Origin: Escherichia coli
GTDB taxonomy: Bacteria > Pseudomonadota > Gammaproteobacteria > Enterobacterales > Enterobacteriaceae
Length of the DNA stretch: 64,000 nucleotides
NCBI RefSeq assembly: GCF_024223415.1
Contig: NZ_CP100500.1
Direction: 5' to 3' (one strand)
The notes under the pieces were generated by a model that was given only the letters and a program-made list of their open reading frames with translations, searched no databases and had not been told where the DNA came from. Of the stretch, positions 17,041 to 41,216 are shown in pieces; position 1 is the first letter of the stretch; each line of letters begins with the position of its first letter. Position numbers and translations under genes: made by a program.

Positions 17041-17996
17041 TGAAGCAACTTTGGTTTGCCATGTCATTAGTGACAGGTAGCCTGTTATTCTCTGCTAACG
17101 CCTCGGCCACTCCCGCGTCCGGGGCGTTATTACAGCAGATGAACCTGGCCAGTCAGTCACTGAATTACGAGCTGTCATTCATCAGCATCAATAAACAGGG
17201 TGTTGAGTCTCTGCGTTATCGACATGCACGCCTCGATAACCGTCCTCTTGCACAATTGTTGCAAATGGATGGCCCGCGCCGGGAAGTGGTACAGCGCGGC
17301 AATGAAATCAGCTATTTTGAACCGGGACTTGAACCGTTCACGCTTAATGGCGATTACATTGTTGATTCTCTGCCATCGCTCATTTATACCGATTTCAAAC
17401 GCCTTTCTCCTTACTACGACTTTATCTCCGTCGGGCGCACGCGTATTGCTGATCGTCTTTGCGAAGTCATTCGCGTGGTTGCCCGAGATGGTACACGCTA
17501 CAGCTACATCGTGTGGATGGACACCGAATCGAAATTACCGATGCGGGTTGATCTTCTTGATCGCGATGGTGAAACGCTGGAACAATTTCGCGTGATTGCT
17601 TTTAACGTCAATCAGGATATCAGCAGCAGTATGCAGACGCTGGCGAAGGCAAATTTGCCGCCGTTGCTTTCTGTTCCTGTAGGTGAAAAAGCTAAATTCA
17701 GCTGGACGCCAACCTGGTTGCCACAGGGTTTTAGCGAAGTTTCCAGTAGTCGACGTCCGCTACCGACGATGGACAACATGCCTATCGAATCACGTCTCTA
17801 TTCCGACGGATTATTCAGCTTCTCGGTAAACGTTAACCGCGCTACGCCATCGAGCACCGATCAGATGTTGCGCACCGGACGCAGAACCGTCAGTACAAGC
17901 GTACGTGATAACGCCGAAATCACCATTGTCGGTGAACTGCCGCCGCAAACGGCGAAACGCATTGCCGAGAATATTAAGTTCGGGGCAGCGCAATGA
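17040..17996 (+). CDS. rseB: sigma-E regulatory protein RseB
   Basis: 318 aa with signal peptide; MKQLWFAMSLVTGSLLFSANASA... Confidence 0.95.
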   Translation: MKQLWFAMSLVTGSLLFSANASATPASGALLQQMNLASQSLNYELSFISINKQGVESLRYRHARLDNRPLAQLLQMDGPRREVVQRGNEISYFEPGLEPFTLNGDYIVDSLPSLIYTDFKRLSPYYDFISVGRTRIADRLCEVIRVVARDGTRYSYIVWMDTESKLPMRVDLLDRDGETLEQFRVIAFNVNQDISSSMQTLAKANLPPLLSVPVGEKAKFSWTPTWLPQGFSEVSSSRRPLPTMDNMPIESRLYSDGLFSFSVNVNRATPSSTDQMLRTGRRTVSTSVRDNAEITIVGELPPQTAKRIAENIKFGAAQ

Positions 17997-18472
17997 TCAA
18001 AGAGTGGGCTACCGTCGTCTCCTGGCAAAACGGGCAGGCGCTGGTCAGTTGTGATGTTAAAGCCTCATGCAGCAGCTGCGCTTCACGCGCCGGTTGCGGT
18101 AGCCGCGTGTTGAATAAACTTGGCCCGCAAACCACGCATACCATTGTCGTACCCTGTGATGAGCCGTTAGTGCCGGGGCAAAAAGTGGAATTGGGGATCG
18201 CCGAAGGCAGCCTGCTTAGCTCCGCATTACTGGTTTATATGTCGCCGCTGGTGGGATTATTCCTCATCGCTTCGCTATTTCAGCTACTCTTTGCTTCTGA
18301 CGTCGCAGCATTATGTGGTGCGGTCCTCGGCGGTATTGGCGGGTTCCTGATTGCGCGTGGCTACTCGCGTAAGTTTGCTGCCCGGGCAGAATGGCAACCG
18401 ATCATCTTAAGCGTGGCATTGCCGCCTGGCCTTGTGCGATTTGAAACATCTTCGGAAGACGCGAGCCAGTGA
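17993..18472 (+). CDS. rseC: sigma-E regulatory protein RseC
   Basis: 159 aa; MIKEWATVVSWQNGQALVSCDVKASCSSCASRAGCG... Confidence 0.93.
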   Translation: MIKEWATVVSWQNGQALVSCDVKASCSSCASRAGCGSRVLNKLGPQTTHTIVVPCDEPLVPGQKVELGIAEGSLLSSALLVYMSPLVGLFLIASLFQLLFASDVAALCGAVLGGIGGFLIARGYSRKFAARAEWQPIILSVALPPGLVRFETSSEDASQ

Positions 18473-18669
18473 TTTCACTGGCTTTGTTGCATTTTGCATA
18501 ACAAATGCGAGGACGTTTCCAGATACCACAATCCATACGGTATGAACATTTCCTCGCCTCAATGTTGTAGTGTAGAATGCGGCGTTTCTATTAATACAGA
18601 CGTTAAGCTCAGAACAGCGACTTCTAAAAGCCTGGTTAACCGGGCATTAAGGCACAATAATCATACTTT

Positions 18670-20469
<1,800 letters not shown>

Positions 20470-21510: not shown

Positions 21511-21700
21511 ATGAGATAAATCTCCCGTGGCTAACGACATCCCCCGTCGTTGTGTATAGAATATTCCCCCGAAGTTTAAGGTTGGCACCTCCAGGTTGCC
21601 ACGGCACACGAAACAGCGTTGGTCCCCATATACCGCTAAACTGAAACTGCAGCGAAGCAGTTAGCAGAGCCATGTATATCAGGTCTGTTTCGTGTGCTGA

Positions 21701-23313
<1,613 letters not shown>

Positions 23314-25176: not shown

Positions 25177-25202
25177 AAATAATACCGTTCTCTTTAAAAA
25201 GT

Positions 25203-25240
25203 AAAACCCCCGAACTGGTAAGGAACGGGGGTTTTACTTT
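25203..25240. terminator. acpS terminator hairpin (probably also terminates the antisense sRNA OhsC)
   Basis: 10-bp stem aaaacccccg/cgggggtttt with 13-nt loop; T tracts on both strands. Confidence 0.7.
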
Positions 25241-25290
25241 GTAACTTTAATTTAGTGCAGCACGCACCCTCAACAACAGCGATTATGGAT
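25205..25290 (-). ncRNA. ohsC: OhsC-like antitoxin sRNA of the shoB/ohsC type I TA locus (boundaries approximate)
   Basis: A 24-nt segment at 25254..25277 is, on the minus strand, complementary to 25502..25525 in the shoB 5' leader; the two mismatches both become G.U wobble pairs. Placement matches remembered literature that OhsC is divergent from shoB with short complementarity. Ends not determined. Confidence 0.5.
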
Positions 25291-26340: not shown

Positions 26341-27744
26341 TTGAGAATGCCGCGCACTGTAACACATAATCCGGATAGCCCCAATAATGACGATGTTTTA
26401 GCCGCTTCTGAAAAATGGGACGCCTGTAAACCCCCCTATACCAGCGCACACATGAAAATCTGTGTTGCTGCCGCCAAAATCATCCTCGCTGCTTCCGGCG
26501 TGGCTCGCCGTTCCAAATACGAAAAAGAGAACTATCTCCGTATCGATTTCAGCAAAGCCGGTAAGGTTACATTTTACGCCGAGTTTCCAAAAAAGATGGG
26601 CCTCAAAGGTAAAAAGCTCGGCGAGTGGCCGGAGCTCGCTATCCAGCTGGCGCGCGAAAAAGCACTAGGTATGGCTGACGGTGGACTGCGGGCAGAGTCC
26701 GTACATGCAGCGCTGGAAATGTACCGGGATGACCTCAAAGCCAAAGTAGCCCGTCAGAAGCTGAGCCCGGACAGTTTCACAACCTATGGGGTGCGTATCG
26801 ACCGGATTAAATCAACGTTCGGCGAGCGCGAGGTGTTCAGCGACGTAACATACAGTCGGCTGGTGGAAGTGCTGGACGAGTGGATCGCCACTCGCTCGAA
26901 CAATAACGCCCTGGAGTTGTTTGCCGAGCTCCGTCGGTTCTGGAAGTTCTGCGCACCTACTCTTTGCAACGGCCGCAATGTTGCCGCCAGTCTGCCAGAT
27001 GATTATGTTTCCTCCCGCGTACAGAAACCCACCCCCACACGGCTTTTTACCGATATTGAGTCAATCGCCCGGCTCTGGCTCAATGTTGCCGCCTGCACCT
27101 CTGTACACCAGAAGAATGCTGTTCGCTTCATGATCATCACCGGAGTTCGTCCGATTAATGTCCATAACCTGCGCTGGGACTACGTTCACGAGGAGGTTGG
27201 TGAAATTGTTTATCCGGAAGGGGTTATCGGCATGCGAGGGGCTATGAAAACACAAAAGGCTTTCCGCCTGCCGATAACGCCTGAGATCCGGCGGATTATC
27301 GACGAGCAGAAAGCCTGGCGTGATTCAGTTCCTGAGTGCAACAGGGATTATGTATTTTTGCAGCCACGTGATCCAATGCAGCCATTTTCAAAACGATCAC
27401 TGGATAAGCTGGTGAAAACATACAGCCCGGACGGGGCTGTAAAAGGAATAAAACATGATGGGACTGTTAAAGGGAAAGACGGTGCATTTAATACGATGTG
27501 CCGTAAATTCCTTAAGAGCAATGTTATTGCCTTGATGAAGGAAAGAGGCTATTCCCGATCAGACCGAAGGGAAATCAGCCTCCTTTGCCTTCACCACTCC
27601 AGCAAGTCAGATGACCCGATGGCAGAACATTACGACTTTTCTGATGAGATTTTACAGGAAGAGATTGCGTTAAAGCGCGAAGCTTTCGAGGCTCACGAGC
27701 GGAGCATACTTGCGCAGGTGGCATTGCTACGGCGGCGAGGTTAA
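26341..27744 (+). CDS. prophage site-specific recombinase (divergent tyrosine integrase); true start may be internal
   Basis: 467-aa ORF at prophage edge next to an AlpA-like excisionase; C-terminal part shows integrase-like elements (ITGVRP..., ...LHHSSKSDDPMAEHY with candidate catalytic Tyr). Family call by eye only. Confidence 0.6.
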   Translation: MRMPRTVTHNPDSPNNDDVLAASEKWDACKPPYTSAHMKICVAAAKIILAASGVARRSKYEKENYLRIDFSKAGKVTFYAEFPKKMGLKGKKLGEWPELAIQLAREKALGMADGGLRAESVHAALEMYRDDLKAKVARQKLSPDSFTTYGVRIDRIKSTFGEREVFSDVTYSRLVEVLDEWIATRSNNNALELFAELRRFWKFCAPTLCNGRNVAASLPDDYVSSRVQKPTPTRLFTDIESIARLWLNVAACTSVHQKNAVRFMIITGVRPINVHNLRWDYVHEEVGEIVYPEGVIGMRGAMKTQKAFRLPITPEIRRIIDEQKAWRDSVPECNRDYVFLQPRDPMQPFSKRSLDKLVKTYSPDGAVKGIKHDGTVKGKDGAFNTMCRKFLKSNVIALMKERGYSRSDRREISLLCLHHSSKSDDPMAEHYDFSDEILQEEIALKREAFEAHERSILAQVALLRRRG

Positions 27745-27941
27745 TACCGGCTGCGACACTTTTGAATAAAAGCGTCGACATTGCGGCGCTCATAACGAAC
27801 TACTTTTGCACTGAAACGAATTGGTGCCAGGATAGCCCGATGACGATGCTTAATATTCCACTCACATAGCGTTTTCTGTGTAATACCTAACTTTTGGCAT
27901 ACTTCATCCGGGGTGAGTAAATCGTCGGGTTTCTCGCTCAT
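27741..27941 (-). CDS. AlpA/Xis-like excisionase / transcriptional regulator
   Basis: ORF 27741..28139; real start at internal Met (MSEKPDDLLTPDEVCQKLGITQKTLCEWN...), 66 aa; AlpA-type HTH; adjacent to the integrase. Confidence 0.7.
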   Translation of the reverse strand: MSEKPDDLLTPDEVCQKLGITQKTLCEWNIKHRHRAILAPIRFSAKVVRYERRNVDAFIQKCRSRY

Positions 27942-29332
27942 GCTATACCTCTCTTTTTCATGGCATCGAGCAGGATGTCCTGCACTGTTCGTTTTGAGTT
28001 GCGCCGCTCTATCACCATTTCGTCCATAGTGTCGGCGGCGATAATGTGGTGAATGAACACCGGGCGGTTGTGTCCGGCCTGAATCTGCCGGGTTGGCCCG
28101 ATGCGTTCGATAATTTGTTGGTACTGCTCCAGATTCCACCAGTGCGAGAAAAACACCAGTATGTTTCCGCCGTCCTGCATGTTCAGGCCGTGGCCCGCGC
28201 TGGCTGGGTGTGCAAAGAGAACAGGAATCTTTCCGGAATTCCAGTCGCGCAGTGTCTGTGGATCCTGGTCGAGGTGACGACCGCGAGGGAATGCTTTAAG
28301 CAAGCGTTCAAGATCGTGTTTCCAGTGATAAGCAACCAGCACAGGTGCGCCAGCTGCTTCGGTCAGTATGCTGTCCAGCGCTTGTAGTTTGGTGTCATGC
28401 AGTTCTGACCAACTTCCGGTGTCGTCTGTGTATACTGCGCCACTGGCGATTTGCAGACATTTCAGTGTCTTTGCCGCGGCGTTCGGTGCTTCGATGCCTT
28501 CGCCATTCAGCTCGAGGAACATTTCCTTTTCCATTTCACGATACTGCTGACGGGCCTTCGGCGGCATATCCACGCGGATTACGTTATGGATGGGGTCTTT
28601 GATATCGAACCAGTCGGCCGCATCCAGCGAGAGGGTCACATCGGCTAATGCTCGCTGTATTTCACCCTGTGAGTGAGCAAAAGGCTCCAGTTTAGTCCAG
28701 CTCTGTCCCGGAAACTGTATCGAGTTGAACCAGCGTGAGGTAAACGCACCGTAAGTGCGCCCGAGACGTTGCCCCTGGTCCACAAACCACGATTGTCCCC
28801 ACAAATCTACCAGGCCGTTCGGTGCTGGCGTACCGGTGAGATTTATCCAGCGCCGGACATACTTATGCGCCACTTTGCCCAGCGCCGCTGCGCGCTTACC
28901 ACCACCTCGCAGCCGGAAGGATTTTAGCCGGGTGCTTTCATCCGGAATGACAGTAACGAACGGCCATCGTTCTCCCAATTCCTCAACCAGCCAGACAAGG
29001 TTATCGTAGTTGATGGTGAACACGCTTGCGTTGCTGTTCGCCAGCGCTGCAGAGCGCGCTTTGGCGTTACCAACAATCGGCTGCACCTCAATATTACGCA
29101 GATGCCCCCATTTCAGCGCTTCATCCGGCCATGTGTTTGCTGCAACACGTAGCGGCGCGAGGACCAGCGCGGGGCGTGTTTCTGCCCCTGCCATAAAGAG
29201 ATCTTCCAGCGTAGTGAGCGTTGCCACGGTTTTACCCATCCCCATCCCTGCCCAGATGTTGCCGCGCAGGGTTTCGGTTTCGTGGTTGATGATGAGGTCC
29301 TGGTAAGGGCGAGGCGTGAAAATTTGTCCCAT
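27938..29332 (-). CDS. SNF2/DEAD-like superfamily-2 helicase (phage replication/recombination)
   Basis: 464 aa; Walker A (GMGMGKT), DExx-like box (IPDEST), helicase C-terminal region. Confidence 0.7.
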   Translation of the reverse strand: MGQIFTPRPYQDLIINHETETLRGNIWAGMGMGKTVATLTTLEDLFMAGAETRPALVLAPLRVAANTWPDEALKWGHLRNIEVQPIVGNAKARSAALANSNASVFTINYDNLVWLVEELGERWPFVTVIPDESTRLKSFRLRGGGKRAAALGKVAHKYVRRWINLTGTPAPNGLVDLWGQSWFVDQGQRLGRTYGAFTSRWFNSIQFPGQSWTKLEPFAHSQGEIQRALADVTLSLDAADWFDIKDPIHNVIRVDMPPKARQQYREMEKEMFLELNGEGIEAPNAAAKTLKCLQIASGAVYTDDTGSWSELHDTKLQALDSILTEAAGAPVLVAYHWKHDLERLLKAFPRGRHLDQDPQTLRDWNSGKIPVLFAHPASAGHGLNMQDGGNILVFFSHWWNLEQYQQIIERIGPTRQIQAGHNRPVFIHHIIAADTMDEMVIERRNSKRTVQDILLDAMKKRGIA

Positions 29333-29376: not shown

Positions 29377-30099
29377 TCAGATTAGATCGGCGTAATAGGT
29401 GAAGTTGCCAAACTGCGGATGCCTCCAGCGCTTGCGGTTACCTTTCGGCGGTGTCGATTCGTTTAACAGCTTTTGAGCTGCTTGTTCGATCGCCGGAAGG
29501 TTAACGAGCAATCCCCGAACACCGGTGTCTGAACGTACCGGTATCCTGGCGAAGCCGATCAATTTCCGGCATGTTGAATCAGATAAACCTGTTTTCCATG
29601 CTGCTTTGCTGACGGGGACATATTCACCTTCAACATGAGATAAATTCGCTGGTGCGGCTGGTTGAGAATAGCCAGTTGCATCAAGACAGGCTTTCATTGT
29701 TGCTTCTGCTACGACGCGAGCAAGCTGGACGATGCCGTCGTTGATCGTAATGCTTGGCGCGGGCGCTGCTGATATTTGAACCTGCTCTTTTTCCCTTTCA
29801 AGTTCTTGCCAGCGGTCAACGATTTGTGCAGTGAATTCAGGACAGAGTTGAGCGACTACAACAATGCTATCGCGTCTGCCTTGTTCTCCTTCAAAGTTAT
29901 ATACTTCATCTTTGACTGTGTGGCCTAAGTTATTGATTCTTTCGATAAACGCCGTTGGCGGTTTTCGTATGATATCGCGCTCGACCAGTCTTTCGATGCT
30001 ACGTTTGACGTCACCCGGACGGCTACCTACCAGATCGGCAATCTCCTTATGGGTCATTGAAAGTTGCTTGGTATCGTTTATCAGTGTTAGAGTATTCAT
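29377..30099 (-). CDS. Rha-family phage regulatory protein
   Basis: 240 aa; N-terminus MNTLTLINDTKQLSMTHKEIADLVGSRPGDVKRSIERLV... typical of Rha. Confidence 0.65.
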   Translation of the reverse strand: MNTLTLINDTKQLSMTHKEIADLVGSRPGDVKRSIERLVERDIIRKPPTAFIERINNLGHTVKDEVYNFEGEQGRRDSIVVVAQLCPEFTAQIVDRWQELEREKEQVQISAAPAPSITINDGIVQLARVVAEATMKACLDATGYSQPAAPANLSHVEGEYVPVSKAAWKTGLSDSTCRKLIGFARIPVRSDTGVRGLLVNLPAIEQAAQKLLNESTPPKGNRKRWRHPQFGNFTYYADLI

Positions 30100-30158: not shown

Positions 30159-30416
30159 TTATTCATCCCACGGCTTGTTTGCAGCCTCCCTTGCGGCCTG
30201 CTGCGCAAAATAAATCAATTCAAAAGCTAACTGTTCTCCTTTTTCCAGCGAACTGAGAAGCCTTGCTGTTTCCAGCATGTCCGCGATATACCCGAAAATA
30301 TCTGCCTGATGTAACTGCGTGATCTTGATAGCCATAGCGTTAACCTCGATGGAACCACTGCGGTCCATTTTAGTAAACCACCGTGGTTTATTGATGTCAA
30401 CACCACCGTGGTGCAT
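30159..30416 (-). CDS. hypothetical phage protein (85 aa)
   Basis: ORF only; divergent from the Arc-like gene across a ~30-bp gap. Confidence 0.4.
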   Translation of the reverse strand: MHHGGVDINKPRWFTKMDRSGSIEVNAMAIKITQLHQADIFGYIADMLETARLLSSLEKGEQLAFELIYFAQQAAREAANKPWDE

Positions 30417-30448
30417 ACTTTGAGAATCGAGTTTATGAGGTAGTTACT

Positions 30449-30763
30449 ATGAGTCGTGAAGATGCGCAGATGAAGATCCGTTTACCTGCGGAACTGAAAG
30501 AATTATTGGAGAATGCAGCCCGTGCTAACGGTCGTTCGTTGAATGCAGAGGTGCTTCAACGCTTAAGATCTTCATTTCCTGCAATAAATAAGCTGGAAAG
30601 CCAGAATACTCATGCGTTTTTATATCTACGACAAGCTGAAGGTATGGGGCTTGGACGCGAAGCTGAATCTTTGCTTAATGAGTGGGGCAAAAATATTGAA
30701 AAAAACACAGAACTCTTAGAAAGACTGCATGAACTCGTAGAAAATCGTTTGGGGAAAAAATAA
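30449..30763 (+). CDS. Arc/MetJ-family ribbon-helix-helix DNA-binding protein
   Basis: 104 aa; N-terminal KIRLPAELKELLENAARANGRSLNAEVLQRL matches the Arc-like RHH pattern. Confidence 0.65.
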   Translation: MSREDAQMKIRLPAELKELLENAARANGRSLNAEVLQRLRSSFPAINKLESQNTHAFLYLRQAEGMGLGREAESLLNEWGKNIEKNTELLERLHELVENRLGKK

Positions 30764-30918
30764 TGTACCGTAACGAAATTGTTACTTAAGGTCTTTAGCT
30801 AGCCTGAATAATATTTCTGCATTTACTGAACGCATATTTTTCTTTGCTGTTTTCTTTAACTCCTCCGCTAATGCGCGGGGGATCCGTAATTTAAACTGTA
30901 AGTGCTCATCTGATTTTT

Positions 30919-31188
30919 TCACAATATCCCCTCCAGATTTTTGCTATCCAGCACCACCACGGTAAAGCCCAGTTTTCGCAGACGTTCATGTTCGCGCAAC
31001 TGGTCAGGTCGTGGTGGTTTGCCTGGCGCTTTGCATTCGACAAAGACGATGCGACCGCCGGGTAGCAGGACAATGCGATCCGGTACCGAGCGGCGACCGG
31101 GAGATACGAACTTAAAGGCCACACCGCCAGCTTTTTTCACTTCAGCGACGAGGTGCTTTTCGATAAGGCTTTCACGTTCACAGGCCAT
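30919..31188 (-). CDS. VRR-NUC domain nuclease
   Basis: 89 aa; HLVAEVKKAGG...RIVLLPGGRIVFVECKAPGKPPRPDQ...KLGFTVVVLD matches the VRR-NUC PD-(D/E)xK pattern. Confidence 0.65.
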   Translation of the reverse strand: MACERESLIEKHLVAEVKKAGGVAFKFVSPGRRSVPDRIVLLPGGRIVFVECKAPGKPPRPDQLREHERLRKLGFTVVVLDSKNLEGIL

Positions 31189-31399
31189 CGTCTGCCACCT
31201 TACGTTTTTCGCGTATGTTCTGCATCAGGCAAAAATCAGATCTGCGCTCACTCCATTCCTGATTGAGCGCGTTACGTGACTGGCGGTTGGCTTTGGCCCA
31301 GACCTTTGCTGCCCGATCGTACGCGCCGGACTGCTCAAGGCACAAAGCCTCCCGTGCAGTCTGGTAATAAAGTGGACTGTCCCGGTATTTAAATGACAT
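31178..31399 (-). CDS. hypothetical small phage protein (73 aa)
   Basis: ORF in operon context; overlaps VRR-NUC gene start. Confidence 0.4.
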   Translation of the reverse strand: MSFKYRDSPLYYQTAREALCLEQSGAYDRAAKVWAKANRQSRNALNQEWSERRSDFCLMQNIREKRKVADDGL

Positions 31400-31410
31400 A
31401 TATTTCGATT

Positions 31411-31898
31411 CCTGTAAAAAGCCCCTGACAGTGCAGGGGCGGGATTGATTTGAATTAACGAGGTAAGGCTGGTGGAATGTATTTGCCGATGCGGTCTTCT
31501 ATCGTTGGCAGAATACACATGCTGTCGTTAAAGCGATCGTGCAGTTTGTAGACCAGTTTCGAATCAGCCATTTCAAGCGCTGGCATTAACTGAGTCTGCC
31601 AGATTTCGTTGATGCGCCGGAAGTTATGACAGATCGCACGAAGATTATTAATGAACATTTCCTTCTCTGCGTCAGTGACTTCTGTTTGTGTTTTCTGAAT
31701 ACGCTTTGTGCTGCCGTTCCGGTAAAAGCGTTCCTGCGCAGCGACAGCCTCATCCACAGTCGGATAACAGCCAACGTATACGTTTTTCTCGCCGTCCCAT
31801 GCATAAGCCCGGTACGGATTGTATTTGCTCCGGTGATGGTAAATCATCTTCGGCAGACATTCCCTGTGCGGCGCCAGTATCGTGGAGGACTGCGGAAC
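31411..31898. repeat. ~490-bp direct repeat, copy A (3' part of BRO-N gene + its terminator)
   Basis: Near-identical to 35504..35990 at DNA and protein level (C-terminal 147 aa plus downstream hairpin gcccctgacagtgcaggggc). Confidence 0.85.
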
Positions 31899-32231
31899 GG
31901 CGGTATCTTTCTCGATAAGGTCAAGCACCCAGCGACGAAATTCTTTGGCTACCGGAGTCGTTGCGAATATTGCTACCAGGTGGGCACCGCGCAGGGAGAA
32001 AACTCGCACATCTTTTTCACGTAAGCTATTGTTTATTCCGTTGAACCTCATTTTGAGGTTGATTGACATACCCGGGGTAAACTCATCTGCGTTGCGGTTG
32101 TATATCTGGGTGATTTTATCGCCGCGCGAATACCCCAGCGCAGTAGCCAGCGTTGCGGCGGTGAACCACTGCCTGCCGTTGTGTTCGGTAGTTTCGAGAA
32201 CGTGAGATTTGAATACGAGTTGGGTACTCAT
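31455..32231 (-). CDS. BRO-N domain antirepressor-like protein with C-terminal AP2-like DNA-binding module
   Basis: ORF 31455..32393; probable start at Met55 (MSTQLVFKSHVLETTEHNGRQWFTAATLATALGY..., BRO-N-like). C-terminal ~147 aa (YRAYAWDGEKNVYVGCYPTVDEAVAAQERF, AP2-like) is nearly identical to the C-terminus of ORF 35547..36311. Confidence 0.65.
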   Translation of the reverse strand: MSTQLVFKSHVLETTEHNGRQWFTAATLATALGYSRGDKITQIYNRNADEFTPGMSINLKMRFNGINNSLREKDVRVFSLRGAHLVAIFATTPVAKEFRRWVLDLIEKDTAVPQSSTILAPHRECLPKMIYHHRSKYNPYRAYAWDGEKNVYVGCYPTVDEAVAAQERFYRNGSTKRIQKTQTEVTDAEKEMFINNLRAICHNFRRINEIWQTQLMPALEMADSKLVYKLHDRFNDSMCILPTIEDRIGKYIPPALPR

Positions 32232-32498
32232 AGTTTTATGTCCTTTGCAATATTTTGAATTCACCCCTTTTGAGAGGGCGGTCAGGCGCTCAAAACCGTG
32301 CAAAGTCGGCGGGCGTATTTCCCTTACGGGTATTGTATTAGCCTCACGCCCGACCATTGAATTCTCAATATCGTGGACATAAAAAATCCGCATGTCTGTC
32401 GGGTGCGGTTTCCGCTTTGCAAGGTGTTTTGAGCACCATGACGCGGAATATAGCCCCGTTAACGCGACATTGTCAAACTGAAGAATTTTACGGATAGC

Positions 32499-32613: not shown

Positions 32614-33357
32614 TTAAGATGAAGCGTTCGCTATCTGAGCGTCGCTGAATGTGAAACCCGCCTGTTTAAGACGCTGGATTAAGCGGGGTACTGTCTCCCG
32701 AACATGGTCATTAAAGTTGAGATAAAGAATACCGGCGGCATCAGAAGGCTGCTCAAGGTGTTGTTTCTGCAGGATGACCACGTTACTGCGACCGAGTGAA
32801 GATAACAGCATCCCCATTTCTAAAACTACGTTTTGGCGTGCCCTGGGCTGGGCTGCTTCCTGGCCGTCTCTTTTGGCGTATCCCACATCATCGGGAGTGA
32901 GGAGAACAATGCCGAAACGCGTCGCTGTCCGTCCCTGACCAATTTCACGTTCAAGCTCTTCAATTATCGTAAGCCCGGTCCCACCGGTATTCTGCAAAAT
33001 AAAATGGTCAGGTAATCCAAGCTTATGAAGAATAAGTTCAAGCTGCTCTTTTGCTACATGATCGTGACCGTGAACGATGAAAATCTTTTTTGCTGGTTCT
33101 TGCATCATGACTGGAGCGTTACCCAGGTGTTCATTAATAATGGCTTCAACCTCAGGTTTTGCCGCTTGTGAACCCTGAATCAAAATCGTTCCGGTGTGGT
33201 AAAGCGTTATGATGGCACCATTACTTAAACGATAACAATCATGACCGGTTTTGTTTTCTTCTCCGGTAACATCAAATCCGGATTCGACTAAAAATTGACG
33301 AAAAGTATCGACAGCGTATGGGTATTTGAGTGCCATTTCATTGAGTTCCTGCATCAT
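32614..33357 (-). CDS. TIR-like domain protein (resembles the 'predicted nucleotide-binding protein containing TIR-like domain' family) with ~80-aa N-terminal domain of unknown function; candidate defence/abortive-infection effector
   Basis: 247 aa. C-terminal region has KIFIVHGHDH...GIVLLTPDD...QPRARQNVVLEMGMLLSSLGRSNVVIL, which I recognise as the signature of bacterial TIR-like (CAP12/Pycsar-effector-type) domains. From memory, not HMM-verified. Confidence 0.5.
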   Translation of the reverse strand: MMQELNEMALKYPYAVDTFRQFLVESGFDVTGEENKTGHDCYRLSNGAIITLYHTGTILIQGSQAAKPEVEAIINEHLGNAPVMMQEPAKKIFIVHGHDHVAKEQLELILHKLGLPDHFILQNTGGTGLTIIEELEREIGQGRTATRFGIVLLTPDDVGYAKRDGQEAAQPRARQNVVLEMGMLLSSLGRSNVVILQKQHLEQPSDAAGILYLNFNDHVRETVPRLIQRLKQAGFTFSDAQIANASS

Positions 33358-35503: not shown

Positions 35504-35990
35504 CTACAAAAAGCCCCTGACAGTGCAGGGGCGGGATTGATTTGAATTAACGAGGTAAGGCTGGTGGAATGTATCTGCCGATGCGGTCTTCTATGGTCGG
35601 CAGAATGCACATGCTGTCGCTGAAGCGGTCATGCAACTGGTAAACCAGTTTAGAATCCATTTTTTCGAGAGCAGGCATTAACTGCGCCCGCCAGATTTCG
35701 TTGATGCGCCGGAAGTTATGACAGACGGCGCGGAGATTGTTGATGAACATTTCCTTCTCTGCGTCAGTGACTTCTGTCTGTGTTTTCTGAATACGCTTTG
35801 TGCTGCCATTCCGATAGAAGCGTTCCTGAGCAGCAACAGCCTCATCCACGGTTGGATAGCACCCTACGTAAACGCTCTTCTCTCCGTTCCATGCGTAGGC
35901 TCTGTACGGGTTGTATTTGCTCCGGTGATGGTAAACCATCTTCGGCAGACACTCCCTGTGTGGCGCCAGTATCGTGGAGGATTGCTGGTG
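35504..35990. repeat. ~490-bp direct repeat, copy B (3' part of AntA-type gene + its terminator)
   Basis: See copy A. Confidence 0.85.
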
Positions 35991-36311
35991 CAGTTTGCGT
36001 TCGCACTCGATGAAGTATCGGCGGATCTGGCGGCCTTTTTCGTTGCGCTCCACCATCGCCAGTTCTTTGGCCGTGTCGAGGGTGAGGTGGTAGTCCTTAC
36101 AAAGAACATTTTTACGCTTTCCAGTTTTGGAAAACGTTACGATATAATCCTGATTTTCAACGAATTCATAGTCTGCAATTCGTGATGTAATCCACGCTGC
36201 AAACACTTTCCCTACCCCAAGGAATGCGTGCAGATCGCGAGCATTGCAGAGCAGGGTGGTTTCGTTGGCGATAGCGCCGTTGAAAACGGGGATGAGTTGA
36301 GTTGCCATCAC
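35547..36311 (-). CDS. AntA-type antirepressor-like protein with C-terminal AP2-like module (paralogue of 31455..32231)
   Basis: 254 aa; distinct N-terminal domain (NARDLHAFLGVGKVFAAWITSRI...) fused to the same ~147-aa C-terminal module as the BRO-N protein. Confidence 0.65.
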   Translation of the reverse strand: MMATQLIPVFNGAIANETTLLCNARDLHAFLGVGKVFAAWITSRIADYEFVENQDYIVTFSKTGKRKNVLCKDYHLTLDTAKELAMVERNEKGRQIRRYFIECERKLHQQSSTILAPHRECLPKMVYHHRSKYNPYRAYAWNGEKSVYVGCYPTVDEAVAAQERFYRNGSTKRIQKTQTEVTDAEKEMFINNLRAVCHNFRRINEIWRAQLMPALEKMDSKLVYQLHDRFSDSMCILPTIEDRIGRYIPPALPR

Positions 36312-36691
36312 AGTTACCTCTAACGGTGAAATTCACCGCCACCACTGAGTTGCAAATCTCATATGGGTGGCGAACTGACGAGGTTTGCAATACCGGCGTT
36401 AGAGGAAACCGGCGCGCCGAAGCGCCCCCGCCAGCCCGCCATAATGCGAACGTGGCAAAGCTTGCGACAATAAAAAAGACGCTGGCGCGTCTGGTGTCGC
36501 CCCTAACAATTCCGGGTTGCAAATCCCGATCTCCATTTGGGAGATTCGGTGAGCATAAACCGGAAGGGGGCGATGAGTCAATATCGGGGTAGCAGGGCGA
36601 CTGGGTGCTAACCAGAACAATACAGGTAGCTCCGGGCATATTCCCCTTTGCAAAAACACCCGGCGTTTAACCGGGCGTCTGTGAAGCAGGA

Positions 36692-40266: not shown

Positions 40267-40890
40267 TTATCTTTTGCGGCGGTAAATACGATGTTCAATC
40301 ATGACCCCTACGATCTGTAAGGGGACATCTGCACTTCGTAGCACGGGATAGTCGGGATTCAGGGGGACCAGTTCAAAATCATCAACGCCGATACCCAACG
40401 GGCGGTATTTTTTGAAAGTGGCCTCATACCCGTTGTTCTTTGCAACGACGAATTCGCCAGGCATGGGGCATAAATCCGGGTCAATTATTACAATATCGCC
40501 TTCCTTAAACTCCGGTTGCATACTGTCACCATCTATCCGCAGGGCGAAGCAGGACTCAGGTACGTCGGAATCCGCGAGAACGTATTCCATATTTCCATCC
40601 ATGTCCGTAGCGTCTTTTGCTTCCGTTAGCGCACCGGCCTGTACGTAACTGAGGATCGGGATGCGGCGGGTACTTATTTCCGCCAGGGGCATTATATTCC
40701 TGCCATTTAAAAGCCAGTCGGGACTGCATTTCAGTGCCTTTGAAAGCTCTATGATGTTGCGGGGCTTCCGGGTCTTTCCGCTTTCAATAGTCTCAATGGA
40801 TTGCTGGCTGACCCCCGCGATTGCTGCAACTTCTGTTTGTGTCATCCCGAGTTCTGTACGGCGTGCTTTAAAGCGTTCTGCAAGTGACAT
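40267..40890 (-). CDS. CI-like prophage repressor (XRE HTH + S24 LexA-like peptidase domain)
   Basis: ORF 40267..40956; start at Met23 (MSLAERFKARRTELGMTQTEVAAIAGVSQQSI...) preceded by AGGGGG RBS; S24 motifs (GDSM...) in C-terminal half; divergent from cro. Confidence 0.85.
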   Translation of the reverse strand: MSLAERFKARRTELGMTQTEVAAIAGVSQQSIETIESGKTRKPRNIIELSKALKCSPDWLLNGRNIMPLAEISTRRIPILSYVQAGALTEAKDATDMDGNMEYVLADSDVPESCFALRIDGDSMQPEFKEGDIVIIDPDLCPMPGEFVVAKNNGYEATFKKYRPLGIGVDDFELVPLNPDYPVLRSADVPLQIVGVMIEHRIYRRKR

Positions 40891-40949
40891 GGTGTACCCC
40901 CTGATTCCTGATTTTTTGCTCTCCCTTATTAATACAATTTTTGTTGTAG

Positions 40950-40978
40950 TTGACAAACATCATTTATTGTCGCTAAAT
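40950..40978 (+). promoter_or_regulatory. PR-like promoter for cro (TTGACA-17 bp-CTAAAT) within the cI/cro operator region
   Basis: Consensus -35 TTGACA with 17-bp spacer and a -10-like hexamer ~30 bp upstream of the cro ATG; flanking short inverted repeats (tacaattt / aaattgta) may be operators. Confidence 0.5.
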
Positions 40979-41006: not shown

Positions 41007-41216
41007 ATGACACTTGCTACCCGAGTAAAAAACCAGCGTAAGGCTCTTGGCCTGACGCAGGTTATGCTGGCAGAACGCACAGGGATTAGCCAGCAGGCCA
41101 TTAACCGCATTGAAAGCGGCCTTATATCCCGTCCCCGTTATCTGCTGGAAATAGCTGTTGCCCTGAACTGCGACCCTAACTGGCTGTTGCATGGTACTCC
41201 CGCGGATAAGACGTAA
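41007..41216 (+). CDS. Cro-like HTH regulator
   Basis: 69 aa; HTH (LGLTQVMLAERTGISQQAINRIESG); divergent from the CI-like gene. Confidence 0.8.
   Translation: MTLATRVKNQRKALGLTQVMLAERTGISQQAINRIESGLISRPRYLLEIAVALNCDPNWLLHGTPADKT

What the first reader, a model, noticed from the sequence alone, without database searches (positions are those of the whole stretch)
30159..30763. Divergent pair: Arc-like RHH regulator and an 85-aa unknown protein separated by ~30 bp
Compact divergent arrangement with a ribbon-helix-helix regulator is typical of small regulatory switches or toxin-antitoxin-like modules; the 85-aa partner has no recognisable motif. It lies in the early-left region near the Rha and antirepressor genes, so could belong to lysogeny/induction control.
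Basis: inference. Interest (0 to 1): 0.3.

Follow-up and report, generated by a model that had tools for sequence, protein, structure and literature searches.

The report
Mnt-like prophage switch with two Arc repressors
The flagged gene pair is the centre of a secondary control switch in an E. coli prophage, resembling the mnt-arc-ant region of phage P22 but rearranged, with two repressors predicted to read the same DNA sites and a new 58-residue protein where P22 has arc.

Summary
Both ORFs exist, but the finding is mis-drawn. The conserved leftward gene (p58) is 58 aa (30159-30335), not 85 aa. The gap is therefore 113 bp, not about 30 bp.

That gap holds three copies of the palindrome ACCAC-N-GTGGT. 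It also holds two back-to-back promoters with overlapping -35 boxes. The palindrome shares its 9-bp core with the P22 Mnt operator.

The 104-aa Arc-like protein (ArcL) aligns with Mnt.

All p58-bearing loci examined (over 30, from E. coli, Salmonella, Serratia and metagenomes) keep the order ArcS, ArcL, operators, p58, Rha/Ant-type gene. Two operator types occur, ACCAC and CTCAC. The predicted base-contacting residues of both Arc proteins switch with the operator type without exception; p58 does not.

My reading is a P22 immI-like secondary immunity module beside a canonical CI/Cro region. ArcL represses the p58-Rha operon and itself. ArcS is supplied from the early replication operon.

p58 is a real gene under purifying selection. 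It is predicted to be a helical hairpin and has no detectable relatives outside its own small family. A toxin-antitoxin reading is not supported.

Novelty: new variant of a known kind. Interest: moderate.

The parts
30159..30335 (-). p58: 58-aa acidic protein predicted to be a helical hairpin; first gene of the regulated leftward operon
   Evidence: Conserved 58-aa core. PGAP annotates 58 aa. GAGG Shine-Dalgarno sequence 8 nt upstream. dN/dS 0.07-0.23. AlphaFold2 model has two helices, pLDDT 73. No Pfam, PHROG, NCBIfam, PADLOC or PDB match apart from one marginal PHROG hit of unknown function, phrog_4587, E 0.009.
30336..30448 (.). 113-bp control region between p58 and arcL, holding three operators and two back-to-back promoters
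30351..30367 (.). O1: degenerate operator copy (core ACCACTGCGGT, 30354-30364), downstream of the p58 promoter -10. Same position as Omnt in P22 Pant.
   Evidence: Most type A relatives carry a perfect or near-perfect palindrome (AACCAC-N-GTGGTT) here.
30375..30389 (.). O2: 15-bp palindrome AAACCAC-C-GTGGTTT in the spacer of the p58 promoter
30401..30413 (.). O3: 13-bp palindrome CACCAC-C-GTGGTG, upstream of the p58 -35 box and inside the spacer of the arcL promoter (candidate autoregulatory site)
30372..30400 (-). Putative p58 promoter: -35 TTGACA (30400-30395), 17-nt spacer, -10 TTTACT (30377-30372). The -10 is non-canonical and tentative.
   Evidence: TTGAC is invariant in 17 of 17 distinct intergenic sequences. 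Coordinates checked. Not reported by the consensus scan because position 2 of the -10 is not A.
30391..30419 (+). Putative arcL promoter: -35 TTGATG (30391-30396), 17-nt spacer, -10 CATACT (30414-30419). Its -35 overlaps the p58 -35 by 2 bp on the other strand.
   Evidence: The CAnnnT pattern of the -10 is kept in all 17 distinct sequences, read by eye from the aligned sequences.
30449..30763 (+). arcL: 104-aa Mnt-like ribbon-helix-helix repressor. N-terminal DNA-binding domain about residues 1-44; C-terminal domain hypervariable.
   Evidence: Pfam Arc 3.1e-12. PDB sequence matches: Mnt 3.8e-5, Arc 1e-4. Beta-strand residues covary with operator type. C-terminal domains 16-29% identical between most loci.
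30782..30922 (-). arcS: 46-aa Arc-like ribbon-helix-helix protein. GTG start overlaps the VRR-NUC stop codon. Last gene of the early-left operon, converging on arcL.
   Evidence: Pfam Arc 6.4e-10. PDB Arc variant 2e-5. GGAGG Shine-Dalgarno sequence and 4-nt overlap with the upstream gene. 3' ends of arcL and arcS lie -32 to +18 nt apart across loci.
29377..30099 (-). Rha/Ant-type gene (240 aa), second gene of the regulated operon
   Evidence: phrog_63 'anti-repressor Ant' 2.5e-21. Pfam Phage_pRha only 0.032, below its cut-off. PGAP names the homologues 'Rha family transcriptional regulator'. The slot always holds an Rha-type or KilA-N+ANT protein.
27741..29332 (-). Distal genes of the same leftward transcription unit: SNF2 helicase (27938-29332) and an AlpA/excisionase-like helix-turn-helix protein (27741-27941), abutting the integrase gene
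   Evidence: This distal content varies between loci.

Best explanation
The pair is the core of a secondary immunity module of the P22 immI type (mnt / Pant / arc-ant). It sits in an E. coli prophage next to yfhL that also has a canonical CI/Cro region.

ArcL (104 aa) is a Mnt-like ribbon-helix-helix repressor. It is predicted to bind three Mnt-type palindromes (ACCAC-N-GTGGT) in the 113-bp region.
- O2 lies in the spacer of the leftward p58 promoter and O1 lies just downstream of its -10 box. Occupancy of these sites shuts off the operon p58 - Rha/Ant-type protein - SNF2 - Xis-like.
- O3 lies in the spacer of the arcL promoter, whose -35 box overlaps that of the p58 promoter. Occupancy there gives autoregulation.

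ArcS (46 aa) has the same predicted base-contacting residues but no C-terminal domain. It is the last gene of the CI-controlled early-left replication operon, translationally coupled to the gene before it, and converges on arcL with no room for a terminator. ArcS therefore delivers a second repressor of the same sites during lytic development, as Arc does in P22.

p58 occupies the position of arc in P22 but is not a ribbon-helix-helix protein and is not the specificity partner. It is a conserved acidic protein predicted to be a helical hairpin, made together with the Rha/Ant-type protein. My best guess (about 35%) is that it acts as an accessory subunit or modulator of that protein.

Shown here: gene structure, operators, covariation, synteny, homology to Mnt/Arc and to the Mnt operator.
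Inferred: who binds where, the direction of regulation, when ArcS acts, and what p58 does.
For: Operators:
- The exact operator 11-mer occurs only in this gap, twice, plus a third degenerate copy. Shuffles of the window gave no enrichment like this.
- The P22 immI record shows Pant as TTGACA-17-TATATT, with Omnt (AGGTCCACGGTGGACCT) just downstream of the -10 box.
- The operators here share the 9-bp core CCACGGTGG, and O1 sits in the same position.

Proteins:
- ArcL aligns with Mnt (E 3.8e-5) and Arc. ArcS aligns with Arc (E 2e-5). The base-contacting positions Q9/N11/R13 of Arc line up with Q-K-R in both proteins.

Covariation:
- Loci with ACCAC-type operators have ArcL Q-M-K-[IV]-R and ArcS Q-F-K-L-R.
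- Loci with CTCAC-type operators have Q-L-R-[VI]-R in both proteins.
- ArcL was concordant in all 34 loci checked and ArcS in the 30 where it was read. These include <50%-identity p58 clusters and a recombinant backbone, L029.
- The similarity between ArcL and ArcS is held at the protein level, with 14-23 identical residues encoded by different codons and no DNA inverted repeat.
- p58 is identical (WP_001007475.1) in loci of both operator types and with unrelated CI proteins.

Promoters and layout:
- The -35 TTGAC of the p58 promoter and the CAnnnT -10 of the arcL promoter are invariant in 17 distinct sequences.
- The order ArcS, ArcL, p58, Rha/KilA-N+ANT is conserved in every locus.
- In the IMG/VR viral contigs, ArcS of this type was found almost only on p58 contigs (7 of 8 hits).
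- CI (HTH_3 + Peptidase_S24) lies at 40267-40956 and a Cro-like gene at 41007-41216.
- In strain 2014C-3061 the early-left operon runs without interruption from the CI side to ArcS.

Reference system: the roles of mnt, arc, sar and ant in P22 immI are summarised in PMC11016777.
Against: - No binding, transcription or genetic data exist for this module; every regulatory step is inferred.
- The -10 box of the p58 promoter (TTTACT) lacks the critical A at position 2, and the consensus scan did not report either promoter.
- The window's O1 is degenerate (2 mismatches), so repression at that site may be weak in this particular prophage.
- In the window, strong terminators follow the AntA and Bro-N cassettes upstream of arcS. 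Supply of ArcS from the CI-controlled promoter would need read-through or an internal promoter.
- The arrangement differs from P22: arc is not in the regulated operon, both repressors are predicted to share one specificity, and the promoter geometry is back-to-back rather than face-to-face.
- The Rha-type protein has never been shown to be an antirepressor. Its Pfam Rha match is below the family threshold.
- A coiled-coil oligomerisation role for the ArcL C-terminal domain could not be shown.
Confidence: 0.65

Rival explanations
1. A lambda-OR-like bistable switch built from ribbon-helix-helix proteins. ArcL (DNA-binding domain plus oligomerisation domain) plays CI and ArcS (DNA-binding domain only) plays Cro. 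They compete for the same three operators. ArcS, made once the CI-controlled early operon fires, preferentially fills O3 or poisons ArcL by forming heterodimers. Convergent transcription through arcL adds to this. The result is that arcL is shut off and the p58-Rha-SNF2-Xis operon is turned on rather than repressed.
For: - Three operators lie between divergent promoters, with centre-to-centre spacings of 23-25 bp. O1 and O2 are over the 'lytic' promoter and O3 over the repressor's own promoter.
- O3 has different flanks from O1 and O2 (CACCAC..GTGGTG against AAACCAC..GTGGTTT) in all type A loci.
- The two proteins have the same base-contacting residues.
- The 3' ends of arcL and arcS overlap or nearly touch, and no terminator is predicted on the minus strand between arcS and p58.
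Against: - ArcS is not encoded in the operon it would activate.
- In P22 the small Arc protein is a repressor of both promoters.
- There is no evidence for differential affinity or for heterodimers.
- The O2-O1 spacing varies from 23 to 31 bp between loci.
Confidence: 0.2
2. p58 is an anti-repressor or feedback regulator of the switch itself. It would bind ArcL or ArcS (or CI), so that a burst from the p58 promoter locks the system in the derepressed state.
For: - p58 sits in the position of arc/cro, as the first gene of the regulated operon.
- It is small, acidic and helical, like several known small antirepressors (the comparison is from general knowledge).
Against: - An identical p58 accompanies both operator and Arc types, hypervariable ArcL C-terminal domains, and CI proteins only 24% identical to each other. 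It therefore does not co-evolve with any of these candidate partners.
Confidence: 0.08
3. A toxin-antitoxin-like or abortive-infection pair: ArcL as a ribbon-helix-helix antitoxin/regulator and the small protein as a toxin.
For: - Ribbon-helix-helix proteins are common antitoxins. ArcL gives weak hits to the FitA, TacA and HicB antitoxin ribbon-helix-helix models.
Against: - The genes are divergent rather than one operon.
- p58 is acidic and soluble-looking, with no match to any toxin, PADLOC or Pfam family.
- p58 is always co-transcribed with, and sometimes overlaps, an Rha/Ant-type gene.
- The best matches for the ribbon-helix-helix domains are Arc and Mnt, and the operator is Mnt-like.
Confidence: 0.04

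Closest known systems
Phage P22 immI region (mnt, Pmnt/Pant, arc, ant, sar)
   Same: - A secondary immunity region alongside a CI/Cro-type immC region.
- A Mnt-like ribbon-helix-helix repressor with a C-terminal extension, transcribed divergently from an operon that carries an antirepressor-type gene.
- A perfect TTGACA -35 box.
- An operator with the core CCACGGTGG placed just downstream of the -10 box, as Omnt is.
- A second, minimal Arc-like ribbon-helix-helix protein (PMC11016777).
   Different: - There are three copies of one operator type instead of one Omnt plus one Oarc.
- Both ribbon-helix-helix proteins are predicted to share one specificity.
- The small Arc gene is not in the regulated operon. 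It sits at the 3' end of the early replication operon, converging on the mnt-like gene.
- The arc position is taken by an unrelated 58-aa helical protein.
- The downstream gene is of the Rha type in this window (KilA-N+ANT in Serratia relatives) rather than P22 Ant.
- No sar-like RNA was detected by Rfam.
- The promoters are back-to-back with overlapping -35 boxes, not face-to-face.
Lambda OR (CI / Cro, OR1-OR2-OR3 between PRM and PR)
   Same: - A tripartite operator between divergent promoters, with spacing of about 23-25 bp.
- One two-domain and one single-domain protein predicted to read the same sites.
- The third site lies over the repressor's own promoter.
   Different: - The proteins are ribbon-helix-helix, not helix-turn-helix.
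- The small protein is not the first gene of the opposing operon.
- This region is additional to a true CI/Cro pair elsewhere in the same prophage.
Phage P1/P7 immI (c4 RNA, icd, ant)
   Same: - A small ORF (icd there, p58 here) precedes an antirepressor-type gene. In some loci here p58 overlaps that gene by 20 nt.
- The same prophage also carries a genuine C4-RNA/AntA cassette.
   Different: - Control here is by ribbon-helix-helix proteins at operators, not by an antisense RNA.
- p58 has no similarity to Icd. This was not tested directly; no family match of any kind was found for p58.
Type II toxin-antitoxin modules with ribbon-helix-helix antitoxins (FitAB, TacAT, RelBE, ParDE)
   Same: - A small ribbon-helix-helix DNA-binding protein next to a small uncharacterised protein.
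- Palindromic operators in the promoter region.
   Different: - The two genes are divergent.
- No toxin domain was found.
- The partner gene belongs to a longer phage operon.
- The ribbon-helix-helix domain is closest to Arc and Mnt.

Membership tests
Arc/Mnt family of ribbon-helix-helix repressors (Pfam PF03869) | Sequence match to the Arc domain above the curated threshold | tested here: met
   ArcL scores 46.6 bits and ArcS 39.2 bits against a 20.4-bit cut-off. Direct matches to the PDB sequences of Mnt (1mnt) and Arc (1arq, 1myk).
Arc/Mnt family of ribbon-helix-helix repressors (Pfam PF03869) | N-terminal beta-strand with alternating polar (DNA-facing) and hydrophobic residues, ending in Pro, then two helices joined by an N-x-R-S/T loop | tested here: met
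   The alignment with Arc and Mnt has invariant R13, P15, N29, R31 and E36. Q-x-K/R-x-R sits at the Arc Q9/N11/R13 positions.
Arc/Mnt family of ribbon-helix-helix repressors (Pfam PF03869) | Sequence-specific binding to a symmetric operator that overlaps a promoter | not testable with these tools
   Supported indirectly: there are three palindromes over the promoters, and beta-strand residues covary perfectly with the two operator types.
Mnt subtype (tetramer through a C-terminal coiled coil) | C-terminal helical oligomerisation domain | tested here: inconclusive
   ArcL has a 32-73-residue C-terminal extension. A heptad-pattern test did not separate it from shuffled sequences, and it failed on Mnt itself. 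No structure prediction was run for ArcL.
P22-type immI module | Mnt-like repressor gene divergent from an operon that encodes an antirepressor, with a Mnt-type operator at the operon promoter | tested here: met
   Gene order and operator core and position were compared with P22 record X01916. The downstream gene matches phrog_63 'anti-repressor Ant' at 2.5e-21, and is KilA-N+ANT in locus L003.
P22-type immI module | arc is the first gene of the ant operon and binds its own distinct operator | tested here: not met
   The first gene is p58, which is not a ribbon-helix-helix protein (hhalign probability 0.3%). ArcS lies in another operon, and only one operator type is present.
P22-type immI module | Antisense sar RNA between arc and ant | tested here: inconclusive
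   No Rfam family matched in 29.3-30.9 kb. Whether Rfam holds a sar model was not checked.
Type II toxin-antitoxin system | Toxin and antitoxin co-transcribed as one two-gene operon | tested here: not met
   The genes are on opposite strands with two promoters between them. p58 is co-oriented with the Rha-type gene and sometimes overlaps it.
Type II toxin-antitoxin system | Recognisable toxin fold or family | tested here: not met
   p58 has no match in Pfam, NCBIfam, PADLOC or PDB, and only a marginal PHROG hit (phrog_4587, E 0.009, unknown function). Foldseek E-values were all 5 or higher.
Lambda-type CI/Cro switch | Tripartite operator between divergent promoters, read by a two-domain and a one-domain protein | tested here: met
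   The geometry and the shared recognition residues are met. The proteins are not helix-turn-helix and ArcS is not in the opposing operon, so this is a resemblance in how it works, not family membership.

The most novel reading that the evidence does not exclude
ArcL and ArcS form a CI/Cro-like antagonistic pair built entirely from ribbon-helix-helix domains. They compete for one tripartite Mnt-type operator. The 'Cro-like' member is wired to the CI-controlled early operon through convergent, overlapping transcription. SOS cleavage of CI would then be relayed to a second bistable switch, which releases p58, an Rha-type antirepressor-like protein, a SNF2 helicase and an excisionase-like protein. 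p58 would be the founding member of a new class of small phage effectors, aimed at a conserved target that is none of CI, ArcL or ArcS.
Probability: 0.2. Interest if true: 0.55.

Novelty: new variant of a known kind. Interest (0 to 1): 0.38.

Why it matters
This is a rearranged form of the P22 immI paradigm that has not been described before.
- It offers a natural two-allele experiment (ACCAC/K against CTCAC/R) on how ribbon-helix-helix proteins read DNA.
- It has two repressors apparently selected to keep the same specificity.
- It places a narrowly distributed, strongly conserved 58-aa protein of unknown function in a key regulatory slot.

The host prophage lineage integrates next to yfhL in E. 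coli. It includes an stx2b-carrying prophage in strain STEC1590 that could not be induced and was described as lacking a regulatory region (PMC12029490). Understanding this extra layer of control could therefore bear on whether such Shiga-toxin prophages can be induced.

The module is rare: 18 of 5,426 complete E. coli genomes, and no sequenced phage isolate. The overall logic is familiar.

Tried and rejected
Searches for a p58 identity:
- Pfam (single sequence, and all 16 family members at E up to 10), NCBIfam, PADLOC and a PDB sequence search gave nothing. PHROGs gave only a marginal hit of unknown function (phrog_4587, E 0.009).
- An exhaustive profile search of 1.84 billion representative proteins found only 11 clusters, all from the same small family.

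p58 structure:
- The AlphaFold2 monomer is a plain helical hairpin (pLDDT 73). Foldseek against the PDB gave only generic hairpins, E 5 or higher.
- I tested whether p58 is a cryptic third ribbon-helix-helix protein. Hhalign against an Arc/Mnt profile gave 0.3% probability.
- A single-chain tandem-dimer AlphaFold2 model had pLDDT 50 and no beta-ribbon. The idea is rejected or unsupported.

Other negative or inconclusive results:
- The crude heptad test for a coiled coil in the ArcL C-terminal domain was uninformative, even for Mnt.
- Gene conversion or an invertible segment between arcL and arcS: no DNA inverted repeat, and many synonymous differences. Rejected.
- LexA boxes: none in the prophage regulatory regions.
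- Sequenced phage isolates (INPHARED, 50,697 records): no p58 homologue. Only the VRR-NUC gene matched three E. coli phages.
- Three literature searches for this arrangement found no description of the module.
- The consensus promoter scan did not report either proposed promoter. The assignments rest on conservation across loci.
- The search for related loci with the mixed Arc alignment and with the 46-aa ArcS sequence failed on technical grounds.
Full report
**Setting**

The window is E. coli chromosome up to about 26 kb (era-recO-pdxJ-acpS-shoB/ohsC-yfhL side). The flank is 99.4% identical to E. coli genomes. A prophage follows, starting with an integrase gene at 26341-27744.

On the minus strand a long early-left block runs from a CI-like repressor at 40267-40956 (HTH_3 + Peptidase_S24). 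A Cro-like gene lies opposite at 41007-41216. The block then contains:
- a DUF2800 nuclease
- an Enc34-type single-strand DNA-binding protein
- an AntA cassette
- DNA polymerase A
- a TIR protein
- a Bro-N protein
- a PerC/ANR-family protein
- a VRR-NUC nuclease

It ends in a 46-aa Arc-like gene. The finding lies just beyond that point.

**Checking the observation**

The two ORFs exist, and the 104-aa product is clearly Arc-like (Pfam Arc 3.1e-12). The 85-aa ORF, however, is over-extended.
- Homologues are almost all 58 aa and start at MAI(K/Q/R)ITQLH. Where an N-terminal extension is called, it is variable.
- PGAP annotates 58 aa (WP_001007475.1) in E. coli relatives.
- The internal ATG (30335) has a GAGG Shine-Dalgarno sequence 8 nt upstream. 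The ATG of the 85-aa form has none, and is the complement of the CAT in the proposed arcL -10 hexamer.

The true gap is therefore 113 bp (30336-30448).

**The control region**

The gap holds three copies of an 11-bp palindrome, ACCAC-N-GTGGT:
- O1 at 30354-30364, with 2 mismatches
- O2 at 30377-30387
- O3 at 30402-30412

The spacings are 23 and 25 bp. The exact 11-mer occurs nowhere else in 64 kb.

Read towards p58, the region is: O3, then TTGACA, then a 17-nt spacer containing O2, then TTTACT, then O1, then the Shine-Dalgarno sequence and ATG. On the other strand it reads TTGATG, then a 17-nt spacer containing O3, then CATACT, then the Shine-Dalgarno sequence and the arcL ATG. The two -35 boxes overlap by 2 bp.

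Across 17 distinct homologous intergenic sequences the TTGAC is invariant, as is the CAnnnT pattern of the arcL -10 (read by eye from the alignment). The p58 -10 is non-canonical, and the consensus scanner reported neither promoter. The promoter assignments are therefore inferences from conservation.

**Comparative evidence**

p58 is a narrow family. It has 22 clusters at 90% identity and 11 clusters at 50% identity among 1.84 billion proteins. Members come from E. coli, Shigella, Salmonella, Serratia and metagenomes. Eighteen of 5,426 complete E. coli genomes carry it, and no sequenced phage isolate does.

Every p58 locus examined keeps the same order: ArcS, then ArcL converging on it, then a 112-130-bp gap, then p58, then an Rha-type or KilA-N+ANT gene. 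These loci come from E. coli genomes, other genomes, Logan assemblies and IMG/VR contigs, and include clusters below 50% identity. The flanking genes differ between loci.

Two operator types exist, ACCAC-N-GTGGT and CTCAC-N-GTGAG.
- With the first type, ArcL carries Q-M-K-[IV]-R and ArcS carries Q-F-K-L-R.
- With the second, both carry Q-L-R-[VI]-R.
- These are the positions that align with the base-contacting Q9/N11/R13 of Arc.
- ArcL agreed with the operator type in all 34 loci checked, and ArcS in the 30 where it was read.

The ArcL-ArcS similarity is maintained at the protein level. Fourteen to 23 identical residues are encoded by different codons, and there is no DNA inverted repeat. That argues for selection to keep a shared specificity rather than for recent gene conversion.

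p58 does not covary. The identical protein accompanies both operator types and unrelated CI proteins. For example, the window and STEC1590 CI proteins are 24% identical while their p58 proteins are 98% identical.

**Link to P22**

I fetched the P22 immI record (X01916). Pant reads TTGACA-17-TATATT, with the Arc operator in the spacer. The Mnt operator AGGTCCACGGTGGACCT lies just downstream of the -10 box.

The operators here share the 9-bp core CCACGGTGG, and O1 occupies the Omnt position. ArcL matches Mnt directly (E 3.8e-5) and has a C-terminal extension, as Mnt does. ArcS matches Arc (E 2e-5) and is the same size.

Together with the separate CI/Cro region, this makes the module a relative of immI in how it works, and probably in descent. 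In immI, Mnt represses arc-ant and Arc represses both promoters (summary in PMC11016777).

The differences from P22 are real:
- One operator type is present in three copies.
- Both ribbon-helix-helix proteins share one predicted specificity.
- The small Arc gene has moved to the end of the early replication operon and converges on arcL. Their 3' ends lie -32 to +18 nt apart, leaving no room for a terminator.
- The promoters are back-to-back.
- p58 sits where arc would be.

**What p58 is**

It is a real gene (dN/dS 0.07-0.23) encoding an acidic protein. AlphaFold2 predicts two helices (residues 10-28 and 34-53) after a conserved N-terminal segment, with pLDDT 73.

It has no informative family, PDB or fold match. 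It is not a detectable ribbon-helix-helix protein.

The only functional hint is one fusion. P0030 is a Bro-N protein 49% identical to the window's own Bro-N protein, and it carries a p58-like C-terminal hairpin (E 4e-5 across the whole library). p58 is also always adjacent to an Rha/KilA-N-type gene and overlaps it by 20 nt in some loci.

From this I guess, weakly, that p58 acts together with the Rha/Ant-type product. The downstream proteins fall into three C-terminal classes, so p58 is not tied to any one of them.

**Mechanism proposed**

- In the lysogen, ArcL is made from its own weak promoter. It occupies O1 and O2 and silences the p58 promoter. At higher levels it fills O3 and limits its own synthesis.
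- When the CI-controlled early-left operon is on, ArcS is made as its last gene, translationally coupled to the one before it. In strain 2014C-3061 this operon runs uninterrupted from the CI side to ArcS. Like P22 Arc, ArcS keeps the p58/Rha operon in check during lytic growth.
- The main rival is that ArcS acts like Cro, or poisons ArcL, and that convergent transcription silences arcL. CI loss would then turn the operon on. The sequence data cannot separate these two.
- One complication in this window is a pair of identical strong terminators after the AntA and Bro-N cassettes, upstream of arcS.

**Verdict**

The regulatory-switch reading is supported and the toxin-antitoxin reading is not. 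This is a new variant of the immI kind of module, of moderate interest. Its value lies mainly in the clean operator/residue covariation, the dual repressors with one specificity, and the uncharacterised p58.

Noticed in passing
window 36363-36545 (minus) and 35547-36311 (minus): Rfam finds a C4 antisense RNA (RF01695, 70.6 bits) and isrK (RF01394, 50.9 bits) directly upstream of an AntA/AntB antirepressor ORF. This looks like a P1/P7-type immI cassette, or the Gifsy-1 isrK-anrP arrangement. The prophage therefore carries RNA-controlled antirepressor cassettes as well as the protein-controlled Arc module.
   Followed up: partly
window 32272-32355 (minus); promoter 32476-32447 (minus); ORF 31455-32393 (minus): sRNA-Xcc1 (RF02221, 79.8 bits) lies at the 5' end of the Bro-N ORF, behind a near-consensus promoter (TTGACA-18-TATATT). 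The true Bro-N start is probably an internal Met. This may be a second small-RNA-plus-antirepressor-type cassette.
   Followed up: no
window 35513-35532 and 31421-31440 (minus): The identical terminator GCCCCTGCACTGTCAGGGGC-TTTTT occurs twice, once after AntA and once after Bro-N. This suggests two inserted cassettes of common origin that interrupt the early-left operon upstream of arcS.
   Followed up: no
window 32614-33357 (minus): A TIR-domain protein (Pfam CAP12/Pycsar TIR 5.6e-31; PADLOC candidate system PDC-S35, E 8.9e-107) is inserted between the DNA polymerase and Bro-N genes. It is absent at this position in the E. coli relatives examined and is probably anti-phage defence cargo.
   Followed up: partly
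L001/L035 (E. coli STEC1590, NZ_CP129345.1, 1307496-1325517): A related prophage at yfhL with the same Arc/p58 module carries stx2b downstream of a Q antiterminator. PMC12029490 reports that this prophage could not be induced and 'lacks the regulatory region', yet a CI/Cro-like pair and the Arc module are both present. Two other relatives checked (SI-NP020 and 2014C-3061) carry no stx genes.
   Followed up: partly
window 30584-30763 (ArcL residues 45-104) and the equivalent region in L001-L033: The ArcL C-terminal domain is hypervariable (16-29% identity in most pairs), while the N-terminal domain is 43-80% identical and p58 is 74-98% identical. This may reflect diversifying selection on an oligomerisation or sensor domain.
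   Followed up: partly
window 30351-30367: O1 in this prophage has 2 mismatches to the core (ACCACTGCGGT). Most type A relatives keep a perfect or near-perfect palindrome at this position. Control of the p58 promoter may be weakened in this particular prophage.
   Followed up: no
L034 1741-2496 (protein P0030): A metagenomic Bro-N protein, 49% identical to the window's Bro-N protein over 179 aligned residues, ends in a p58-like helical hairpin. It is the only fusion found for the p58 family.
   Followed up: partly
window 31178-31399 (minus): An ANR/PerC-family small regulator (NCBIfam ANR_neg_reg, 1.9e-18) is encoded in the same operon as VRR-NUC and ArcS. ANR proteins are annotated as regulators, so this prophage copy might affect host regulons.
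   Followed up: no
window 17957-18788, 21571-21785, 25198-25274: Ordinary host RNA elements lie on the chromosomal side: AsrC, rncO and the ohsC antitoxin RNA (the shoB gene itself is annotated at this site in the E. coli relatives). They sit next to the prophage attachment site near yfhL.
   Followed up: no
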